Assembly (NCBI GenBank): GCA_038222815.1
Contig: JBBRHK010000001.1
Location: forward strand, 1-43,012
Length of the DNA: 43,012 bases
Direction: 5' to 3'
Source: Chitinophagales bacterium
Lineage (GTDB): Bacteria; Bacteroidota; Bacteroidia; Chitinophagales; Chitinophagaceae
The translations under genes and the position numbers were made by a program. Positions 12,930-42,192 of this stretch are shown here, piece after piece. The stretch's first letter is position 1. The number at the start of each line of letters is the position of its first letter. The notes under the pieces were generated by a model. It did no database searches and was not told the origin of the DNA. It saw nothing but the letters and a program-made list of their open reading frames with translations.

Positions 12930-13361
12930 CTATTTACTACTCATCCTTATTACCGGCACTATCATTTCCTCCAAGCTCACTCCGCCATGCTGAAAAGTGT
13001 TTCTATAATAATTTACAAAGTGATTATAATTATTAGGGTAGCAAAGAAAGGTATCACCTTTGGCAAAAATAAAGCTACTATTTACATTGGGCACTGGTAA
13101 GCCTGCCTCTTTGGGGTCTTTGAAGGCAAGCACATCTCTGTCTTCATAATTTAGATTTCTGCCGTGCTTATATCTAAGATTTGCCGTGGTGGCTTTATCA
13201 CCTATTACTTTTACGGGTGTTTTTACCCTAGTGCTACCATGGTCGGTAGCAATAATCATATTTATATTTTTATCAGCAATCTTCTTAATCGCTTGGTGCA
13301 GCGGGCTATGTTCAAACCAACTTGCCGCAATACTTCTATAACTTGTTTCGTCGCCGGCAAG
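12930..13361 (-). repeat. Displaced copy of the porX 3' end (direct repeat of 15462-15893)
   Basis: 432-bp ungapped alignment with about 25 mismatches by manual count, ending at the shared stop codon. Confidence 0.97.
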
Positions 13362-15461: not shown

Positions 15462-17018
15462 CTACTTACTACTCATCCTTATTACCGGCACTATCATTTC
15501 CTCCAAGCTCACTCCGCCATGTTGAAAAGTATTTCTATAATAATTTACAAAGTGATTATAATTATTAGGGTAGCAAAGAAAGGTATCACCTTTGGCAAAA
15601 ATAAAGCTACTATTTACATTGGGCACTGGTAAGCCTGCCTCTTTGGGGTCTTTGAAGGCAAGCACATCACGCTCTTCATAATTCAGATTTCTGCCGTGCT
15701 TGTATCTAAGATTTGCGGTAGTGGCTTTATCGCCTATTACTTTTACAGGCGTTTTTACCCTAGTGCTACCATGATCGGTAGCAATAATCATATTTATATT
15801 TTTATCGGCAACCTTCTTCATTGCTTGGTGCAGTGGACTATGTTCAAACCAGCTTGCAGTAATACTTCTATAACTTGTTTCATCGCCGGCGAGTTCTTTC
15901 AACACTTCCATCTCTGTTCTTGCATGGCTCAGCATATCTACAAAATTGTACACAATTACATTGAGATCATTTTGTAAAAGATTGTGCATATTGTCCACCA
16001 TTTTTTCTCCATCGTGGTGGTTGGTAATTTTGGTATAAGAAATTTTTAGATCTCCGTGGCCCATTCTTTTAAGGTTGGCTCTCAAGAATGTTTCTTCATG
16101 CAGGTTTTTCCCACCTTCTTCATCATCATTCTTCCACTCTTCTTTAAATTGTTTTTCTATGTCGATGGGTAAAAGTCCAGCAAAAATGGCATTCCTAGCA
16201 TATTGCGTAGCCGTAGGAAGTATAGCGTAAAAAGTTTCTTCTTCGTGTATGCGGAAAGATTCTGCTACGATAGGTTGTATGGTCTTCCATTGATCGAAAC
16301 GTAAATTATCAATCAAGACAAAAAATAAAGGCTTCCCTTTTTCTAAATGAGGAACTACCTTAAACTTTAAAAGATTATTACTCATTATAGGTGCGTCGGT
16401 TGACTTCGGCGAAACCCAAGAAGCATAATTCCTGCTGATGAATTTAAAAAACTCGGTATTGGCTTCTTGCTTCTGTGCTTGAAAAACATCTTGCATCTCA
16501 GGGCTATCACTCTTCTTCATTTCAAGTTCCCAATACACTATTTTTTTATACAATTCCATCCAAGCAGTATAATCCAAATCATCATTGAGTGCCATAAATA
16601 AAGTACGGAACTGCTGCTGATAAGAGGACGTTGTTTTCTCTGCTACCAATCTTTTATTGTCTATTATTTTCTTTAGCGATAGCAGTACCTGGTTAGGATT
16701 CACCGGCTTTATAAGATAGTCGCTGATTTGACCGCCGATAGCTTCATCCATAATATTCTCCGCTTCATTCTTTGTAATGAGCACCACAGGAATATTGGTA
16801 TTGTGTTCTTTTATTTGTTGCAGCGTTTGTAGCCCAGTAAGACCGGGCATACTTTCATCCATCAAGACTACATCTACAATATTTTCTTTTACATACTCTA
16901 TTGCATCAAAGCCATTGGAGATAGTTTTTACTTCGTAGCCCTTATTTTCCAAGAACATTATTTGCGAGTTTAATGTATCAATCTCATCATCTACCCAAAG
17001 GATTTTTGCAGCGCTCAT
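15462..17018 (-). CDS. porX: PorX response regulator (REC plus PglZ/alkaline-phosphatase domain)
   Basis: ILWVDDEID, IDNLRFDQW, ILPTATQYARNAIF, NFVDMLSH, TDHG, FQHGGVSLEEM. Start placed at ATG 17018. Confidence 0.95.
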   Translation of the reverse strand: MSAAKILWVDDEIDTLNSQIMFLENKGYEVKTISNGFDAIEYVKENIVDVVLMDESMPGLTGLQTLQQIKEHNTNIPVVLITKNEAENIMDEAIGGQISDYLIKPVNPNQVLLSLKKIIDNKRLVAEKTTSSYQQQFRTLFMALNDDLDYTAWMELYKKIVYWELEMKKSDSPEMQDVFQAQKQEANTEFFKFISRNYASWVSPKSTDAPIMSNNLLKFKVVPHLEKGKPLFFVLIDNLRFDQWKTIQPIVAESFRIHEEETFYAILPTATQYARNAIFAGLLPIDIEKQFKEEWKNDDEEGGKNLHEETFLRANLKRMGHGDLKISYTKITNHHDGEKMVDNMHNLLQNDLNVIVYNFVDMLSHARTEMEVLKELAGDETSYRSITASWFEHSPLHQAMKKVADKNINMIIATDHGSTRVKTPVKVIGDKATTANLRYKHGRNLNYEERDVLAFKDPKEAGLPVPNVNSSFIFAKGDTFLCYPNNYNHFVNYYRNTFQHGGVSLEEMIVPVIRMSSK

Positions 17019-35660: not shown

Positions 35661-36158
35661 AAAATCCCTACGGGATGACCTTATAGTAGAAAAATGCCCA
35701 TCTTTTTTATATTTCAAAGTCTACCGCGGCGGACGTCCTTACAGTAAAAGTAGTTGAAGCAATTCTAAAACAATGCAAGCGTTATTATTATCTCCCAAGA
35801 AATTTTTCAAGCAAGTATGGCTGCGGTTGAAAGCATCGAATTGATCAAGTACAATTTTTTATAACACAAAGCCATTTCATTCGCCGCTGCGAACAAAAGC
35901 CTGAAGGGCTGACATTATTATAGTAACCAAACATTAATATTTCTCAAAACCCGGAACGGGTGACATTATTTTCTCTTTTTGTTCTTTATAATCTTAACTG
36001 TTATAATGCCACCCTTTTAGGGTTTTTATAACTTGGCCAAAAATATTCTATAATAATATCATCCCTTCGGGATTGGCAGAAGTATGCAGTAAATGCACAA
36101 TTGCAGGCTAACCAGATTCAAATACTTGTAAAAACCTCTACCAGTTCGCCGCGGCGAA
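35661..36158. repeat. Cluster of REP-like palindromic units (two families)
   Basis: NCCC-n-GGGNTGACATTAT(TATAG) units forward at 35661, 35895 and 35946, reverse at 36003 and 36048. CGCCGCGGCG-type palindromes at 35719, 35880 and 36145. Confidence 0.75.
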
Positions 36159-36509
36159 GAGCGATTACGAGAATATCAACCTAATACTTTTATGGTGGAG
36201 CTAAAGCAACTACGAATTGAAAATTACGAATTACAAGCTTTCGCAAGTTCTCAACAGCTAATTGATTTATTGCACAAGAGTTTGAAATAAATATATTTAG
36301 AAACCTCTACCAGTATTTGCAGAGGCGCCTTGAAAGATAGGCTTTTGCGATAGCAAAAGGAGGCGCAATGACCGAAGGGCATATTGCGACGTCCTATTTT
36401 TCACAGCGGCGGCGCAAATACGATGCCCAGCGGCAAAGAGCGATTACGAGAATATCAACCTAATATTTTTATGGTGGAGAGAAAAAAATTTCGAATTAAA
36501 AATTACGAA
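36132..36509 (+). repeat. Two ~100-bp direct repeats, the second interrupted by an insert
   Basis: aaacctctaccagt...agagcgattacgagaatatcaacctaata(c/t)ttttatggtggag...aaaattacgaa at 36132-36230 and 36301-36509. Confidence 0.9.
36313..36421. mobile_element. MITE-like structured insert
   Basis: Terminal inverted repeats gtatttgc/gcaaatac, an 11-bp inner stem and two hairpins. Absent from the neighbouring repeat copy. Confidence 0.55.
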
Positions 36510-38205: not shown

Positions 38206-38808
38206 TTATCTTCTCCACTTTATAATATCTACATCGTAGTTTAATCCGATTATGAGTTGTGTATAACCATATCGTCCAGGTATTTTGCTTGCCACTTGCG
38301 CTGTTGTAAATGCGAGGTCTAACCAAAGTCTTTTTTTAAGTTTGAAATTAGCGCCACCTCCCCAGTTTACATAAGTTATTCCCGCTCGCTTAAAGGGTAA
38401 ATCTTCGCCACAGGTACAATAATTTCCCTTGTAATATCCTAGCTCCAAGAAGCCAAAACTTACATCGCCCACAAATACTCGGTATTGACCTACAGCTCCA
38501 AGTAACGAGTAATCATTTTTACCCGTAAGCACACCCTTTGTGTAGATCTTTTTATAGTCTATTCCAAGCCTTATATGTTTGGTGATATCTGTTGCCGCAT
38601 TTATACTGAATGTATGCTCTTGATACCTAGTGTCATAATCTACACCATTAATTACCTCTGTTTCTGGATAATAGAAGTAGTTACCGCCTATTACGAGGTT
38701 GAGCACTCTCGTAGAATCGTCAATCGGTTTTTCTTTTCGATTTTTGTTCTGTGCTAACGCTGCCATTGAGATGCAGAGAGCAACTATAATAGTGAACATC
38801 CCCTTCAT
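38206..38808 (-). CDS. Outer-membrane beta-barrel protein (8-stranded type)
   Basis: Signal peptide; alternating beta-strands; terminal strand LIIGLNY; CTC motif in a loop. Confidence 0.7.
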   Translation of the reverse strand: MKGMFTIIVALCISMAALAQNKNRKEKPIDDSTRVLNLVIGGNYFYYPETEVINGVDYDTRYQEHTFSINAATDITKHIRLGIDYKKIYTKGVLTGKNDYSLLGAVGQYRVFVGDVSFGFLELGYYKGNYCTCGEDLPFKRAGITYVNWGGGANFKLKKRLWLDLAFTTAQVASKIPGRYGYTQLIIGLNYDVDIIKWRR

Positions 38809-39479
38809 TTCTTTTTTTGTTTATAGATGAAATAAGCTAAGCCCAATTCGTTAATAGGAAAGATTTTTGCATACGTTGTGTTAGGTAATTTTATAGTAGG
38901 CTTAGTAGCAAACTCCAACCCTATTGCAATATTATAACTAAGTCTGCGCTTCGGCTGTATGTTTATTCCTAGTAACGGCGTAACTAAGGCATTCTGATTT
39001 TTAGCATTAAAAAAAGCCGCCTTCTGCCCAGAGCTATCCTTCCCCCTATAGAAATTTCTTCTACTGTAACTTAAATTTAGATATGGGTATATATTTAATT
39101 TCTTTTTGTGTACACTATCGGTTAATGCTTTCCTTCTCCCTAATATATTCGAGAAATAGTATTCCATAAAAATACCTCCTGTCTTACTATCGGGTTCTTC
39201 TCTCCCAAAATTACTCCAGTATTTTCCATACCTATATTGAAGCCCTACAGCTAGGTTATTCATAATAAAATAACCTAGCTTAGGCATCAATGTGGCCTCG
39301 ACTTGATTGTAATTTATAACATCGGGGTAGCTTCCAGCTCTAATATTACTAAACCAAAAGGAACTATTTAATGCTATTAGGAATTTTCTATGTACAATCG
39401 AAGAGTCTGCTGATTTTTGCTGGCCAGTTACGCTTAGATGTACACATAAAAAAAATATTAAGAAGTAAGTCGTTTTCAT
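38805..39479 (-). CDS. Outer-membrane beta-barrel protein
   Basis: Signal peptide; PKLGYFIMNNLAVGL strand pattern; terminal LGLAYFI. 4-nt overlap with the next gene. Confidence 0.7.
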   Translation of the reverse strand: MKTTYFLIFFLCVHLSVTGQQKSADSSIVHRKFLIALNSSFWFSNIRAGSYPDVINYNQVEATLMPKLGYFIMNNLAVGLQYRYGKYWSNFGREEPDSKTGGIFMEYYFSNILGRRKALTDSVHKKKLNIYPYLNLSYSRRNFYRGKDSSGQKAAFFNAKNQNALVTPLLGINIQPKRRLSYNIAIGLEFATKPTIKLPNTTYAKIFPINELGLAYFIYKQKKK

Positions 39480-39493
39480 AATAAAGTTTTAAT

Positions 39494-40210
39494 CTAAAAT
39501 CCATACGCTAACCAACTTTTTGCTTTATTATCTATAAAGGCTAATGGTCCTGTGAATGATACCGTTCCTGTTCCCCAACCAACCAATGTAGCCATTCTGG
39601 TTCTGAAATACGTTTTTCTATATATAACGTCTTTACCGTATAAAAACATAGGTGCAAAACAACTGACTTTTTCTTGCCAAGCACCAAACCACATAAAAGC
39701 AGAAATTCCTGGGTAGAGAGTGCTCGGTGTGGTATTAGGCGAACTTTTGTCAAACCAAGTACCAGCGAGTATTCCTTTATTTTGTCCTTCTTGGTAGTTT
39801 GGTATATTGTTAATATAGTTTTCCTCAAATGCAGTATATCGTGCATCAATGACACCTATGCTATCATAAAGGTCAATAGCTCCTATTGATTGTGCATAGC
39901 TTTGAAGGTCATTTTCAATTTCTAGAACCTTTTGAAGATTTAGGCCTAGCTCCGTTCCTTTTTGTAGATAGCTTGCCAAGGAGGAATATGAAAAGAAAAG
40001 AATTTTTTCCTCTGATACTTTTTGGATAATTAAATTCAGTGTGGTATCCTCTAGGCTATATGTGTTTTCTGCTACTTTTGCATTATTAAAATAATACTCA
40101 CATATTGGTGCGGAGAACCGCAAAGAATTAGTTTCAGTGACAATGGTTTTAGTTGGTTCTATGGTTGGTTCTTCTTCAATTCTCCCCTTGCTACAGGATA
40201 CAAGTAACAT
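39494..40210 (-). CDS. Putative lipoprotein; probable true start is ATG 40291, cut off by an in-frame TAA at 40235-40237
   Basis: Lipobox LVS-C only 5 codons after Met 40210. The upstream in-frame reading is MKNVSLKHSSIFRTVEKF*IFQLLVFLMLLVSC. Confidence 0.75.
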   Translation of the reverse strand: MLLVSCSKGRIEEEPTIEPTKTIVTETNSLRFSAPICEYYFNNAKVAENTYSLEDTTLNLIIQKVSEEKILFFSYSSLASYLQKGTELGLNLQKVLEIENDLQSYAQSIGAIDLYDSIGVIDARYTAFEENYINNIPNYQEGQNKGILAGTWFDKSSPNTTPSTLYPGISAFMWFGAWQEKVSCFAPMFLYGKDVIYRKTYFRTRMATLVGWGTGTVSFTGPLAFIDNKAKSWLAYGF

Positions 40211-40220
40211 TAGAAATACT

Positions 40221-40253
40221 AACAGTTGAAAAATTTAAAATTTTTCAACTGTT
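40221..40253. repeat. Perfect 16-bp inverted repeat with a 1-nt centre
   Basis: aacagttgaaaaattt-a-aaatttttcaactgtt. Confidence 0.97.
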
Positions 40254-40342
40254 CTGAAAATACTGGAGTGCTTAAGTGAAACATTTTTCATTGCTTTTGA
40301 TTTTAATTATTTAAAAATTTATTCATTGATTTTTACAATATT

Positions 40343-40350
40343 CAAAATTA
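40343..40350 (-). promoter_or_regulatory. Bacteroidota -7 element for the lipoprotein operon
   Basis: Minus strand TAATTTTG, about 50 nt upstream of ATG 40291, flanked by ttttacaat direct repeats (40331, 40353). Confidence 0.55.
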
Positions 40351-40389
40351 TATTTTACAATTCTTTTTTCAAACAAGCTATATCTTGTT

Positions 40390-40605
40390 TTACTCAAGAA
40401 AGGAAGGATTTTTTATATCAACTAGAAAAGGTAAAGACACACCAATAGCTTTAGCAATTTTTTCTAAAGTGTTAAATGAAGAGTTCCCTGCTTTTCGCTC
40501 TATCTGACCATAAGCCGAAGCTGAGATATTTATCTTAGCCGCTACTTCTATTTGAGTAAAACCATAAGCTTCCCTAATTTCTTTTATTCTATTTGCTAAT
40601 AACAT
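40390..40605 (-). CDS. XRE-family helix-turn-helix regulator
   Basis: RIKEIRE..GFTQIEVA..I.IS.SAYGQIER...LEKIAKAIGV. Confidence 0.92.
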   Translation of the reverse strand: MLLANRIKEIREAYGFTQIEVAAKINISASAYGQIERKAGNSSFNTLEKIAKAIGVSLPFLVDIKNPSFLE

Positions 40606-40782
40606 ATTTGTTACTCTTTTTTCATTTAAATAATGTCCTTTTAAAAAAAGTTAATTTAAGTTGAAGTTATACTAATATTTAAATGACTATACAGATCTGG
40701 CCAACCTAATTTCTTAATAGCTACTTTTTATTCATTAAATTTGCTCCTAGAAACAGACAAAAACTTCACTATTAACATCGGT

Positions 40783-41181
40783 TGTGGAAAACCGTTATTA
40801 TCTGTGGAGAAAATAGGAAAGTTATAAAATGATTTGTGTTCAAATGGGGTATAAGCTCTGGAAGTGGAGCCTACTAAATTACTTAGTGGTAACAAATCTA
40901 AAATTATACCTTCTTCTTCCCCCAGATTTTTTGTCAGGTAGAAAACAATTTTATACTCATTAAGGCTTATACACAATTTTTTTAGAAATGTTATTAGAAT
41001 CGTAGTTTGAAATAGTTTTTAAAGAGACACAGCGGAGGAGCCTATGTTAATTAAAGGTGGATAAGCGTAGAATATCCTAACAACAATCAATTTACAATTA
41101 TGGCAGCAGAATTTCTTTCCACATATTCACAGCCCTAATAGTAATAAGAGATTATATAAATAATAAGTATTAGTATATATT
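40783..41181 (+). other. Probable chromosomal replication origin (oriC)
   Basis: DnaA-box-like 9-mers at 40783, 40803, 40951, 40967 and 41056. Tandem boxes 41115-41131 are followed by GCCC, TAA TAG TAA TAA GAG and an AT-rich tract. Confidence 0.7.
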
Positions 41182-42192
41182 ATGGTAGAAATGCACAATG
41201 AAACAATCCAAAAAATTGTAAACGAAAAAGGGTTCCTTGACATCGAGTTGGATCCGAACTTAGATTTGTTTGCGGAGATTGAAAAATTGAAGAAAGAAAA
41301 AAACGCCATCATCCTTGGGCATTATTACCAGGAACCAGATATACAGGACGTGGCCGATTTTATAGGCGATAGCCTGGCGCTTGCACAAAAGGCAGAAAGC
41401 ACCGATGCAGATATTATTGTTTTTGCTGGTGTTCACTTTATGGCAGAAACAGCGAAGATTTTAAATCCTCATAAAAAAGTGTTGTTGCCAGATTTGAATG
41501 CTGGCTGCTCATTGAGTGATAGTGCGCCGCCAGCATTGTTCAAAATATTCCGTGATAAATATCCTGATCATATCGTGATTACCTACATCAATTGCAGCGC
41601 AGGTATCAAAGCATTGAGCGATATTATTTGCACCAGCAGTAATGCCAAGCAAATTGTAGAATCACTGCCGCCCGACCAGAAGATAATTTTTGCACCTGAT
41701 AAAAATCTGGGTGCATACATCAGCAAAGTTACAGGCAGAGATATGGTGCTTTGGAATGGGGTGTGTATGGTACACGAAATTTTTAGTGCAGAAAAAATTA
41801 CGAAATTAAAAGTCCGTCATCCGCAAGCTAAAGTGATAGCGCACCCAGAGTGTGAGGAGCACGTGCTACGACTGGCAGATTTTATTGGCAGTACTTCTGC
41901 GCTGCTAAAATATTCTCAACAGAACCATGCTACGGAATTTATTGTGGTTACGGAAAGTGGCATCTTGCACCAAATGCAAAAGGATAGTCCGCACAAAACT
42001 TTCATACCTGCGCCGCCTACCAATACTTGTGCTTGCAATGACTGCCCGTATATGAAGCTGAACACATTGGAAAAATTGTACTTGTGTATGAAGTACGAAA
42101 CGCCAGAGATTACGATGAGTGATGAGTTACTGGCTGCTGCAAAAAAACCAATAGAAAAAATGCTAGAAATTAGTGCGAAGTATGGTTTATAA
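41182..42192 (+). CDS. nadA: Quinolinate synthase
   Basis: [44 protein letters not shown]. Confidence 0.98.

What the first reader, a model, noticed from the sequence alone, without database searches (positions are those of the whole stretch)
40221..40253. A palindrome whose orientation decides stop versus Lys in a lipoprotein signal peptide
Seen: perfect 16-bp arms surround one base, 40237. On the coding (minus) strand that base is the T of an in-frame TAA in MKNVSLKHSSIFRTVEKF*IFQLLVFLMLLVS-C. Inverting the 33-mer changes only this base and gives AAA, so the frame reads ...EKFKIFQLLVFLMLLVS-C, a complete lipoprotein signal peptide (basic n-region, h-region, lipobox). The rest of the gene is intact and a -7 promoter element lies upstream of ATG 40291. 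Established: template switching at quasi-palindromes can perfect the arms and invert the centre. Inference: this may be a recombinase-free, one-base ON/OFF switch for a surface protein. Alternatives are a one-off knockout, an operator for the adjacent XRE protein, or an assembly artefact.
Basis: partly seen in the sequence, partly recalled or inferred. Interest (0 to 1): 0.8.

Follow-up and report, generated by a model that had tools for sequence, protein, structure and literature searches.

The report
Palindrome-centre flip silences a lipoprotein gene
In an uncultured Bacteroidota bacterium, a predicted surface-lipoprotein gene is cut by a stop codon that begins on the single middle base of a perfect 33-base DNA palindrome; a relative has lysine there, so the stop likely came from a known replication slip that flips palindrome centres, but flipping back inside a population has not been seen.

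Summary
40221-40253 is a perfect 16+1+16 palindrome whose centre is the T of a TAA at codon 19 of an otherwise open 265-codon lipoprotein gene with a full -33/-7 promoter. It is far beyond chance and not an assembly error: contigs from two further studies carry the same TAA. A 75%-identical homologue (P0003) has Lys there and 11 of 11 other palindrome-coded residues identical; 47-51% homologues have equally long signal peptides, so the sense codon is likely ancestral. Switching was not seen: all 3 runs that cover the site show TAA only (contigs hide rare variants), no full-length intact allele was found, and close relatives are broken by three unrelated frameshifts. The XRE operator is more likely a different inverted repeat (40371-40390), kept in 3 of 3 XRE modules. 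Best reading: a template-switch spacer inversion, a known mechanism (about 1e-8 for related E. coli reporters), made a young, in principle revertible nonsense allele in a dispensable βγ-crystallin-domain lipoprotein. A selected ON/OFF switch is not excluded (about 18%). This scan noted palindrome-centred stops before on other DNA (7 unchecked notes).

The parts
40221..40253 (.). Perfect palindrome, 16-bp arms and 1-base centre, covering codons 13-24 of the signal peptide; single copy in the genome
   Evidence: hairpin of about -13 kcal/mol as single-stranded DNA, z about -6 to -7
40235..40237 (-). In-frame TAA (codon 19); its first base is the palindrome centre; Lys in homologue P0003
   Evidence: TAA in contigs of runs X1, X2, X3
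39494..40291 (-). Interrupted lipoprotein gene, 265 codons; predicted signal peptide II with Cys33
   Evidence: family of 120 hits, Cys conserved in at least 90% of 80 aligned members
39497..39775 (-). C-terminal βγ-crystallin-like domain (residues 146-238 of the 238-aa downstream ORF)
   Evidence: AlphaFold2 model pLDDT 89; 1hdf_B Z 8.9, rmsd 2.5, 87 aligned, and the top 20 rows nearly all crystallin-fold chains; Foldseek best E 2.7e-3, same fold
40343..40373 (-). Bacteroidota-type promoter match, -33 TTTG and -7 TAATTTTG, 19 nt apart
   Evidence: consensus from PMC2483708 passage
40371..40390 (.). Second inverted repeat (7-bp arms, 6-base centre) at the 3' end of the XRE gene, overlapping the -33 box; candidate XRE operator
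   Evidence: arms invariant in 3 of 3 XRE modules (this one, G000:C79, G152:C37), in register with a TTTG-ending -7-like box
40390..40605 (-). XRE-family (HTH_3) regulator, 71 aa
   Evidence: PF01381 E 3.8e-15
38805..39479 (-). Downstream secreted protein, probable outer-membrane β-barrel, starts 15 nt after the lipoprotein stop; likely same operon
   Evidence: no Pfam hit; 13 of 16 listed differences to run X2 are at third codon positions; barrel identity is inference from sequence pattern
38206..38808 (-). Second downstream outer-membrane β-barrel-like gene, overlapping the first by 4 nt
   Evidence: PF13505 E 5.3e-5, below the curated cut-off; distant homologues L176 and L177 are also followed by secreted barrel-like genes

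Best explanation
The stop is a real nonsense allele that likely arose when a DNA-polymerase template switch between the two arms turned the palindrome's one centre base around, changing an ancestral Lys codon into TAA in the signal peptide of a predicted surface lipoprotein. Shown: palindrome, stop, promoter, same stop in independent samples, Lys in a relative. Inferred: the Lys state is ancestral; the change was an inversion rather than an ordinary substitution; no lipoprotein is made from the TAA allele, and the two coupled barrel genes may be partly affected by polarity; the TAA-bearing 5' segment is young and has recombined onto different gene bodies. Because the arms stay perfect, the same slip would restore the sense codon, but at a mutation-like rate. 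It would act as a revertible mutation hotspot in a dispensable accessory gene that is also lost by ordinary frameshifts, not as a phase-variation switch.
For: Stop on the centre base: 1 of 129 single-base routes to a stop; unique among 357 candidate stops. P0003 has Lys at this codon and 11 of 11 other palindrome-coded residues identical against 24 of 42 in the flanks (Fisher p 0.01; p about 0.05 at the overall 112 of 148 identity). P0139 and P0140 (47-51%) have intact signal peptides with Cys at 32. Youth and recombination: the TAA segment has 0 differences in X1 (945 nt) and X3 (297 nt) and none inside the palindrome in X2, whereas the adjoining X2 contig differs at 69 of 1,978 bases. Other lesions: P0002 frameshifts at residue 131 and X3 has a 1-base deletion at the same place, 39818; P0003, P0007 and P0010 stop at one shared frameshift; P0006 shifts at another; distant L176 has a frameshift and a stop. 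Coding palindromes with arms of 12 or more are in excess genome-wide, 9 against 2.0. Literature: spacer inversions in yeast coding repeats need arms over 9 bp, recur and reverse (PMC8604942, passages); E. coli quasipalindrome reporters revert at 1.7-5.5 per 1e8 cells untreated (PMC6357072, figure legends).
Against: The Lys allele is known only as protein: its codon could be AAG and its arms imperfect. P0006 and P0007, identical to P0003 downstream, are called from the Leu just after the centre; if they carry TAA, both states exist on one background and the change recurs, which favours the switch. The 21 differences between the window protein and P0001 are conservative (mean BLOSUM62 0.90 against -0.36 +/- 0.36, 0 of 2,000 simulations), so the gene body was under purifying selection until recently, and the window's body has no second lesion. 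Contigs drop rare variants, so a minor Lys fraction was not testable. The E. coli rates are for intramolecular arm correction, not centre inversion.
Confidence: 0.55

Rival explanations
1. A selected, recombinase-free ON/OFF switch: the palindrome is kept in the signal peptide because centre flips toggle a surface lipoprotein at a rate that gives bet-hedging.
For: Palindrome-coded peptide unchanged at 75% identity; Lys and stop both occur in nature; P0006 and P0007 start right after the centre on the P0003 background; body under purifying selection and intact behind the stop; surface protein in a mosaic locus; quasipalindrome reversion rises to 2,900 per 1e8 or more under drug stress in E. coli; yeast spacers flip both ways on a tree.
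Against: TAA only in 3 of 3 runs covering the site; no Lys contig among 6 runs laid. The window protein's 90% cluster has 3 members, none full-length; three protein searches found no intact full-length close allele. P0002 carries a frameshift behind the same late start, as expected if OFF is long-lived. One such site in the genome; no palindrome in the signal peptides of distant homologues L176 and L177. Template switching itself slows change in arms, so conservation needs no selection (PMC5941160, passages), and a shared recombined 5' segment would also explain it.
Confidence: 0.18
2. An ordinary A-to-T point mutation that happened to hit the centre of a palindrome kept for another reason (chance arm perfection or an RNA hairpin).
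For: A one-base inversion and a substitution give the same sequence; the gene is hit by many unrelated lesions.
Against: About 1 in 129 by position alone, unless the loop base is hypermutable by another route.
Confidence: 0.14
3. The TAA form is not a knockout: the 18-codon frame is a leader peptide over an attenuator-like hairpin, or translation restarts at ATT, CTG or ATG 40210 just behind the stop.
For: The hairpin scores as terminator-like on the coding strand; the stop lies in its loop; the TAA form is widespread and the body intact.
Against: A restart leaves no Lys or Arg before the Cys, while 66 of 72 family members with a lipobox-like start have one (of 121 examined); the restart codons lack A at -3 and -6, which favour initiation in Flavobacterium (PMC6847099, passages); the relative reads through as Lys; the stem has only 3 G-C pairs and a weak T run.
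Confidence: 0.08
4. The 33-mer is the operator of the neighbouring XRE protein and the centre base is incidental.
For: Palindrome about 90 bp downstream of a promoter next to an HTH_3 gene.
Against: Single copy in the genome even at 8 mismatches; absent from the two other XRE modules, which instead share the 20-bp repeat overlapping the -33 box.
Confidence: 0.03
5. Assembly or library artefact.
For: The genome is a fragmented assembly (431 contigs); X1 may be its source run.
Against: TAA also in independently assembled contigs from two other studies, X2 at depth 14.3 and X3 at 3.5, each bridging the site by more than 100 bases on both sides; words of 31 bases span flank, arm and centre.
Confidence: 0.02

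Closest known systems
Spacer inversion by intermolecular template switching in coding inverted repeats (Ripley model; ten S. cerevisiae cases, PMC8604942, passages read)
   Same: Perfect arms longer than 9 bp, very short spacer, two states that are reverse complements, one codon changed (SPO75 K/L flip at an AA/TT spacer), no recombinase.
   Different: Bacterial; spacer of one base (2-5 in yeast); the outcome is a stop in a signal peptide; recurrence on a tree is not shown here.
Quasipalindrome template-switch mutations in E. coli (lacZ QP5/QP6 reporters, thyA hotspot; PMC7202029 and PMC6357072, passages read) and conserved perfect repeats in proteobacteria (PMC5941160, passages read)
   Same: Same replication mechanism; short perfect repeats in excess over shuffles, also in this genome.
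   Different: Those reporters measure one-way arm correction; here the arms are already perfect and only the centre can change, in both directions.
Intragenic invertons of Bacteroides and other bacteria (PMC10028968, passages read)
   Same: Orientation inside a gene decides between an intact protein and a premature stop; surface genes of Bacteroidota among the targets.
   Different: Predicted to be invertase-driven, with a real invertible segment (57 bp in their example) and both orientations seen in reads; the authors set very short enzyme-independent flips apart. Here one base, and no mixed population seen.
Slipped-strand phase variation at short sequence repeats (PMC7241687, passages read)
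   Same: Enzyme-free, replication-driven, reversible stop in a surface gene.
   Different: Repeat-length change rather than inversion; high switching rates (recalled: about 1e-5 or more per generation) that are not shown here.

Membership tests
Template-switch spacer inversion | Perfect inverted repeat, arms over 9 bp, short spacer | tested here: met
   16-bp arms, 1-base spacer
Template-switch spacer inversion | Two natural spacer states that are reverse complements | tested here: inconclusive
   T state in DNA; A state inferred from Lys in P0003, codon not seen
Template-switch spacer inversion | Arms shared by both states | tested here: inconclusive
Template-switch spacer inversion | Recurrence or reversal on a tree | not testable with these tools
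   Too few alleles with DNA; no other genome among 338 of the genus holds the gene body
Phase-variable (contingency) locus | Both states within one clonal population | tested here: inconclusive
   TAA only in contigs of X1, X2, X3; contigs drop rare variants; no raw-read run was listed
Phase-variable (contingency) locus | High, reversible switching rate | not testable with these tools
   Needs a fluctuation assay; related E. coli reporters give about 1e-8 untreated
Phase-variable (contingency) locus | A functional ON allele exists | tested here: inconclusive
   The only Lys-bearing close protein, P0003, ends at a frameshift after 149 aa; intact full-length forms seen only at 47-51% identity
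Phase-variable (contingency) locus | Target is a cell-envelope protein | tested here: met
   Predicted lipoprotein: conserved lipobox Cys across the family; surface exposure itself is inferred
Intragenic inverton (invertase-driven) | Inverted repeats flank a distinct invertible segment | tested here: not met
   One base between the arms
Intragenic inverton (invertase-driven) | A cognate invertase | not tested
   No recombinase family search was run; the neighbouring ORFs look like XRE, barrels, amidase and nadA
XRE operator | The palindrome recurs with paralogous or orthologous regulators, at the promoter | tested here: not met
   33-mer absent from 2 of 2 other modules; the 20-bp repeat is present in 3 of 3
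βγ-crystallin superfamily (C-terminal domain) | Two-Greek-key crystallin fold | tested here: met
   Z 8.9, rmsd 2.5, 87 aligned to 1hdf_B on a pLDDT-89 model; no Pfam crystallin hit in 80 members; calcium binding not tested

The most novel reading that the evidence does not exclude
A one-base, enzyme-free phase-variation switch: a perfect palindrome kept inside a signal-peptide sequence flips its centre by template switching, often enough (perhaps under replication stress) to toggle a surface lipoprotein and its coupled barrel genes, with P0003 versus P0006/P0007 being the two states on one strain background.
Probability: 0.18. Interest if true: 0.78.

Novelty: new member of a known kind. Interest (0 to 1): 0.4.

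Why it matters
As it stands it is a clean bacterial example of palindrome-centre inversion producing a stop codon, with both states seen in nature, and a warning that such genes are annotated as short, signal-less ORFs. If the flip were fast and selected, it would be a kind of phase variation that needs no recombinase and no repeat tract, looks like a plain SNP and is missed by inverton and repeat finders. Seven library searches (listings and abstract starts) showed no paper describing that in bacteria; the library lacks most subscription papers. The 33-mer is small enough for a direct reporter test.

Tried and rejected
Genomes: 0 of 36 same-genus with the single protein; the 98 of 338 same-genus profile hits cover only the first 103 profile positions (signal peptide), so none is a full homologue; at E 1e-10, 1 of 400 family and 2 of 350 order genomes, two distinct loci in all. 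No match in phages or plasmids. No fragment of 30-80 aa for P0003. Pfam gave no family for the lipoprotein; the Atlas did not hold P0001 or P0008. A +1 slip at the TTT-TAA step meets a stop within four codons (read from the sequence), so frameshifting does not rescue the gene. An 8-bp repeat in the G152 signal peptide was set aside as chance in AT-rich DNA. Supplements of the papers were not opened.

Full report
Observation. The window is contig C1 of a 2.88-Mb, 431-contig assembly; promoter type and gene content point to Bacteroidota, probably Chitinophagaceae (inference, helped by an unchecked scan note). Bases 40221-40253 form a perfect palindrome of 16+1+16; the reverse complement differs at 40237 only. 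From ATG 40291 on the minus strand, codon 19 is TAA and is the only internal stop in 266 codons; Cys33 lies in a lipobox. A full -33/-7 promoter match lies at 40373-40343 (consensus from PMC2483708, passage). The genome has 18 perfect repeats with arms of 16 or more and loops up to 5, many of them terminator-like by eye; none of 21 with loops up to 8 lies inside a called long ORF, and codon shuffles gave none with arms of 14 or more in 10 genomes. Among 357 stops that split an ATG frame from a long open frame, this is the only one with arms longer than 7.

Is the stop real? Six of 20 listed runs were laid, all as contigs. Three cover the site. X1, possibly the source, has 945 nt with 0 differences. 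X3, another study, has 297 nt with 0 differences (depth 3.5). X2, a third study, has a 489-nt contig at depth 14.3 with 11 differences and 1 gap; six differences are listed, none in the palindrome, and the table omits only those near contig ends, which are over 170 bases away. No contig shows the other base. Contigs drop rare variants, so this excludes an artefact but not a minority allele. In X2 the gene body differs at 69 of 1,978 bases, and a deeper branch (depth about 59) leaves the window sequence at 40079 and a divergent contig of like depth joins at 40369, so most of that population seems to carry a different 5' part (linkage inferred from depth). The locus is mosaic and the TAA segment is nearly clonal, hence young.

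Is there an ON state? P0003 (75% identical) reads Lys at this codon, with 11 of 11 other palindrome-coded residues identical against 24 of 42 in the flanks. P0139 and P0140 (47-51%) have intact long signal peptides with Cys at 32; P0011 has a shorter intact one. Of 121 family proteins examined, 72 show a lipobox-like start and 66 of these have Lys or Arg before the Cys. A sense codon is therefore likely ancestral. P0001 (91%) and P0002 are called from the same late Met as the window, which suggests TAA (inferred). P0006 and P0007 match P0003 but are called from the Leu just after the centre; P0010 and P0128 start later still; P0008 and P0009 also start late. These may be stops, contig ends or caller choices; their DNA could not be reached.

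Against a working switch. No full-length intact close allele was found. P0003, P0007 and P0010 end at a shared frameshift, with P0005 and P0127 picking up in the other frame; P0006 shifts at a different place; P0002 shifts at residue 131, where X3 also has a 1-base deletion (39818, depth 3.8, separate contig from the TAA one); the distant homologue L176 has a frameshift and a stop. Some of these could be assembly errors, but two recur. The gene is rare: no full homologue in 338 same-genus genomes, two loci in 750 family and order draws. L176 and L177 share the lipoprotein-barrel-barrel layout but have no palindrome in the signal peptide. For a switch: the 21 differences to P0001 are strongly conservative (0 of 2,000 simulations), so the body was functional until recently, and the window's body is still intact.

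The operator question. The 33-mer is single-copy even at 8 mismatches. A different repeat, 7-bp arms with a 6-base centre at 40371-40390, overlaps the -33 box and is invariant at the 3' end of a 58%-identical XRE paralogue on C79 and of a 65%-identical XRE in G152 (1 of 120 genomes), in register with a -7-like box before a secreted-protein gene. That is the better operator candidate (binding untested; it could also be a weak terminator).

The protein. An 80-sequence alignment gave a model with pLDDT 89. Residues 146-238 match βγ-crystallin domains (1hdf_B Z 8.9, rmsd 2.5, 87 aligned; Foldseek agrees at E 2.7e-3). The N-terminal half was not searched alone. Pfam names no family. Function is inferred only: an envelope lipoprotein working with two outer-membrane barrel-like proteins.

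Mechanism. [quoted passage not shown] A random nonsense change would hit this base about once in 129, so the palindrome is the likely cause. Related E. coli reporters revert at 1.7-5.5 per 1e8 cells untreated and up to thousands per 1e8 under drugs (PMC6357072, legends; reporter design in PMC7202029, passages); these measure arm correction, so they only bound the scale. Perfect repeats are over-represented and conserved without special function (PMC5941160, passages), as the excess of 9 against 2.0 coding palindromes here also suggests. It works like a spacer inversion; it is not an intragenic inverton as defined in PMC10028968 (passages); membership among phase-variable loci is unproven.

Earlier scan notes. 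A word search returned 7 unchecked notes of palindrome-centred stops in other genomes, some claiming both forms recur. I did not test them and they do not enter the score, but they show that a pooled test across loci is possible.

Verdict. Real feature, known mechanism, new instance with a nonsense outcome in a bacterial signal peptide. Best reading 0.55; selected switch 0.18; interest 0.4.

Noticed in passing
window 40606-41182: Probable replication origin upstream of nadA: four DnaA-box matches with at most one mismatch (40791, 40811, 40967, 41064; consensus recalled), 7 with two against 2.6 expected, and GC skew turning positive at about 41000. The palindrome lies about 550 bases from the first box. 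ppiD-like genes face nadA in most of ten relatives viewed but not here or in G197.
   Followed up: partly
window 40371-40390; G000:C79:6232-6251 (L175); L174:336-355: A small XRE gene ending in a conserved 7+6+7 inverted repeat over the -33 box of a downstream secreted-protein gene forms a recurring regulatory module, 3 of 3 cases.
   Followed up: partly
run X2, window 40079-40481: Most of this population appears to carry a divergent 5' block (gene start, promoter and XRE end) joined to the same gene body: cassette-like exchange of the N-terminal part.
   Followed up: no
proteins P0131-P0138 (homologues of window 38805-39479): The first barrel-like gene occurs as mosaic combinations of a few variants across eight records, either recombination or mixed-strain assembly.
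   Followed up: no
window 39249-39280: A 12-bp-arm inverted repeat with an 8-base loop inside the first barrel-like gene, one of nine such coding repeats in the genome.
   Followed up: no
window 12930-13229 and 15462-15761: 300-nt direct repeat, 96% identical, at the 3' ends of a short ORF and of a response-regulator gene 2.5 kb apart; looks like a partial duplication around an inserted gene.
   Followed up: no
window 35897-36509: Intergenic stretch with a 27-bp imperfect inverted repeat and an 80-nt direct repeat (89%), possibly a small repeated element.
   Followed up: no
L176:1154-1930 (G510:C53): A distant homologue of the lipoprotein is broken by a frameshift and an internal stop, with two copies of an 8-bp-arm inverted repeat upstream of genes in that locus (993-1031, 2881-2901).
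   Followed up: no
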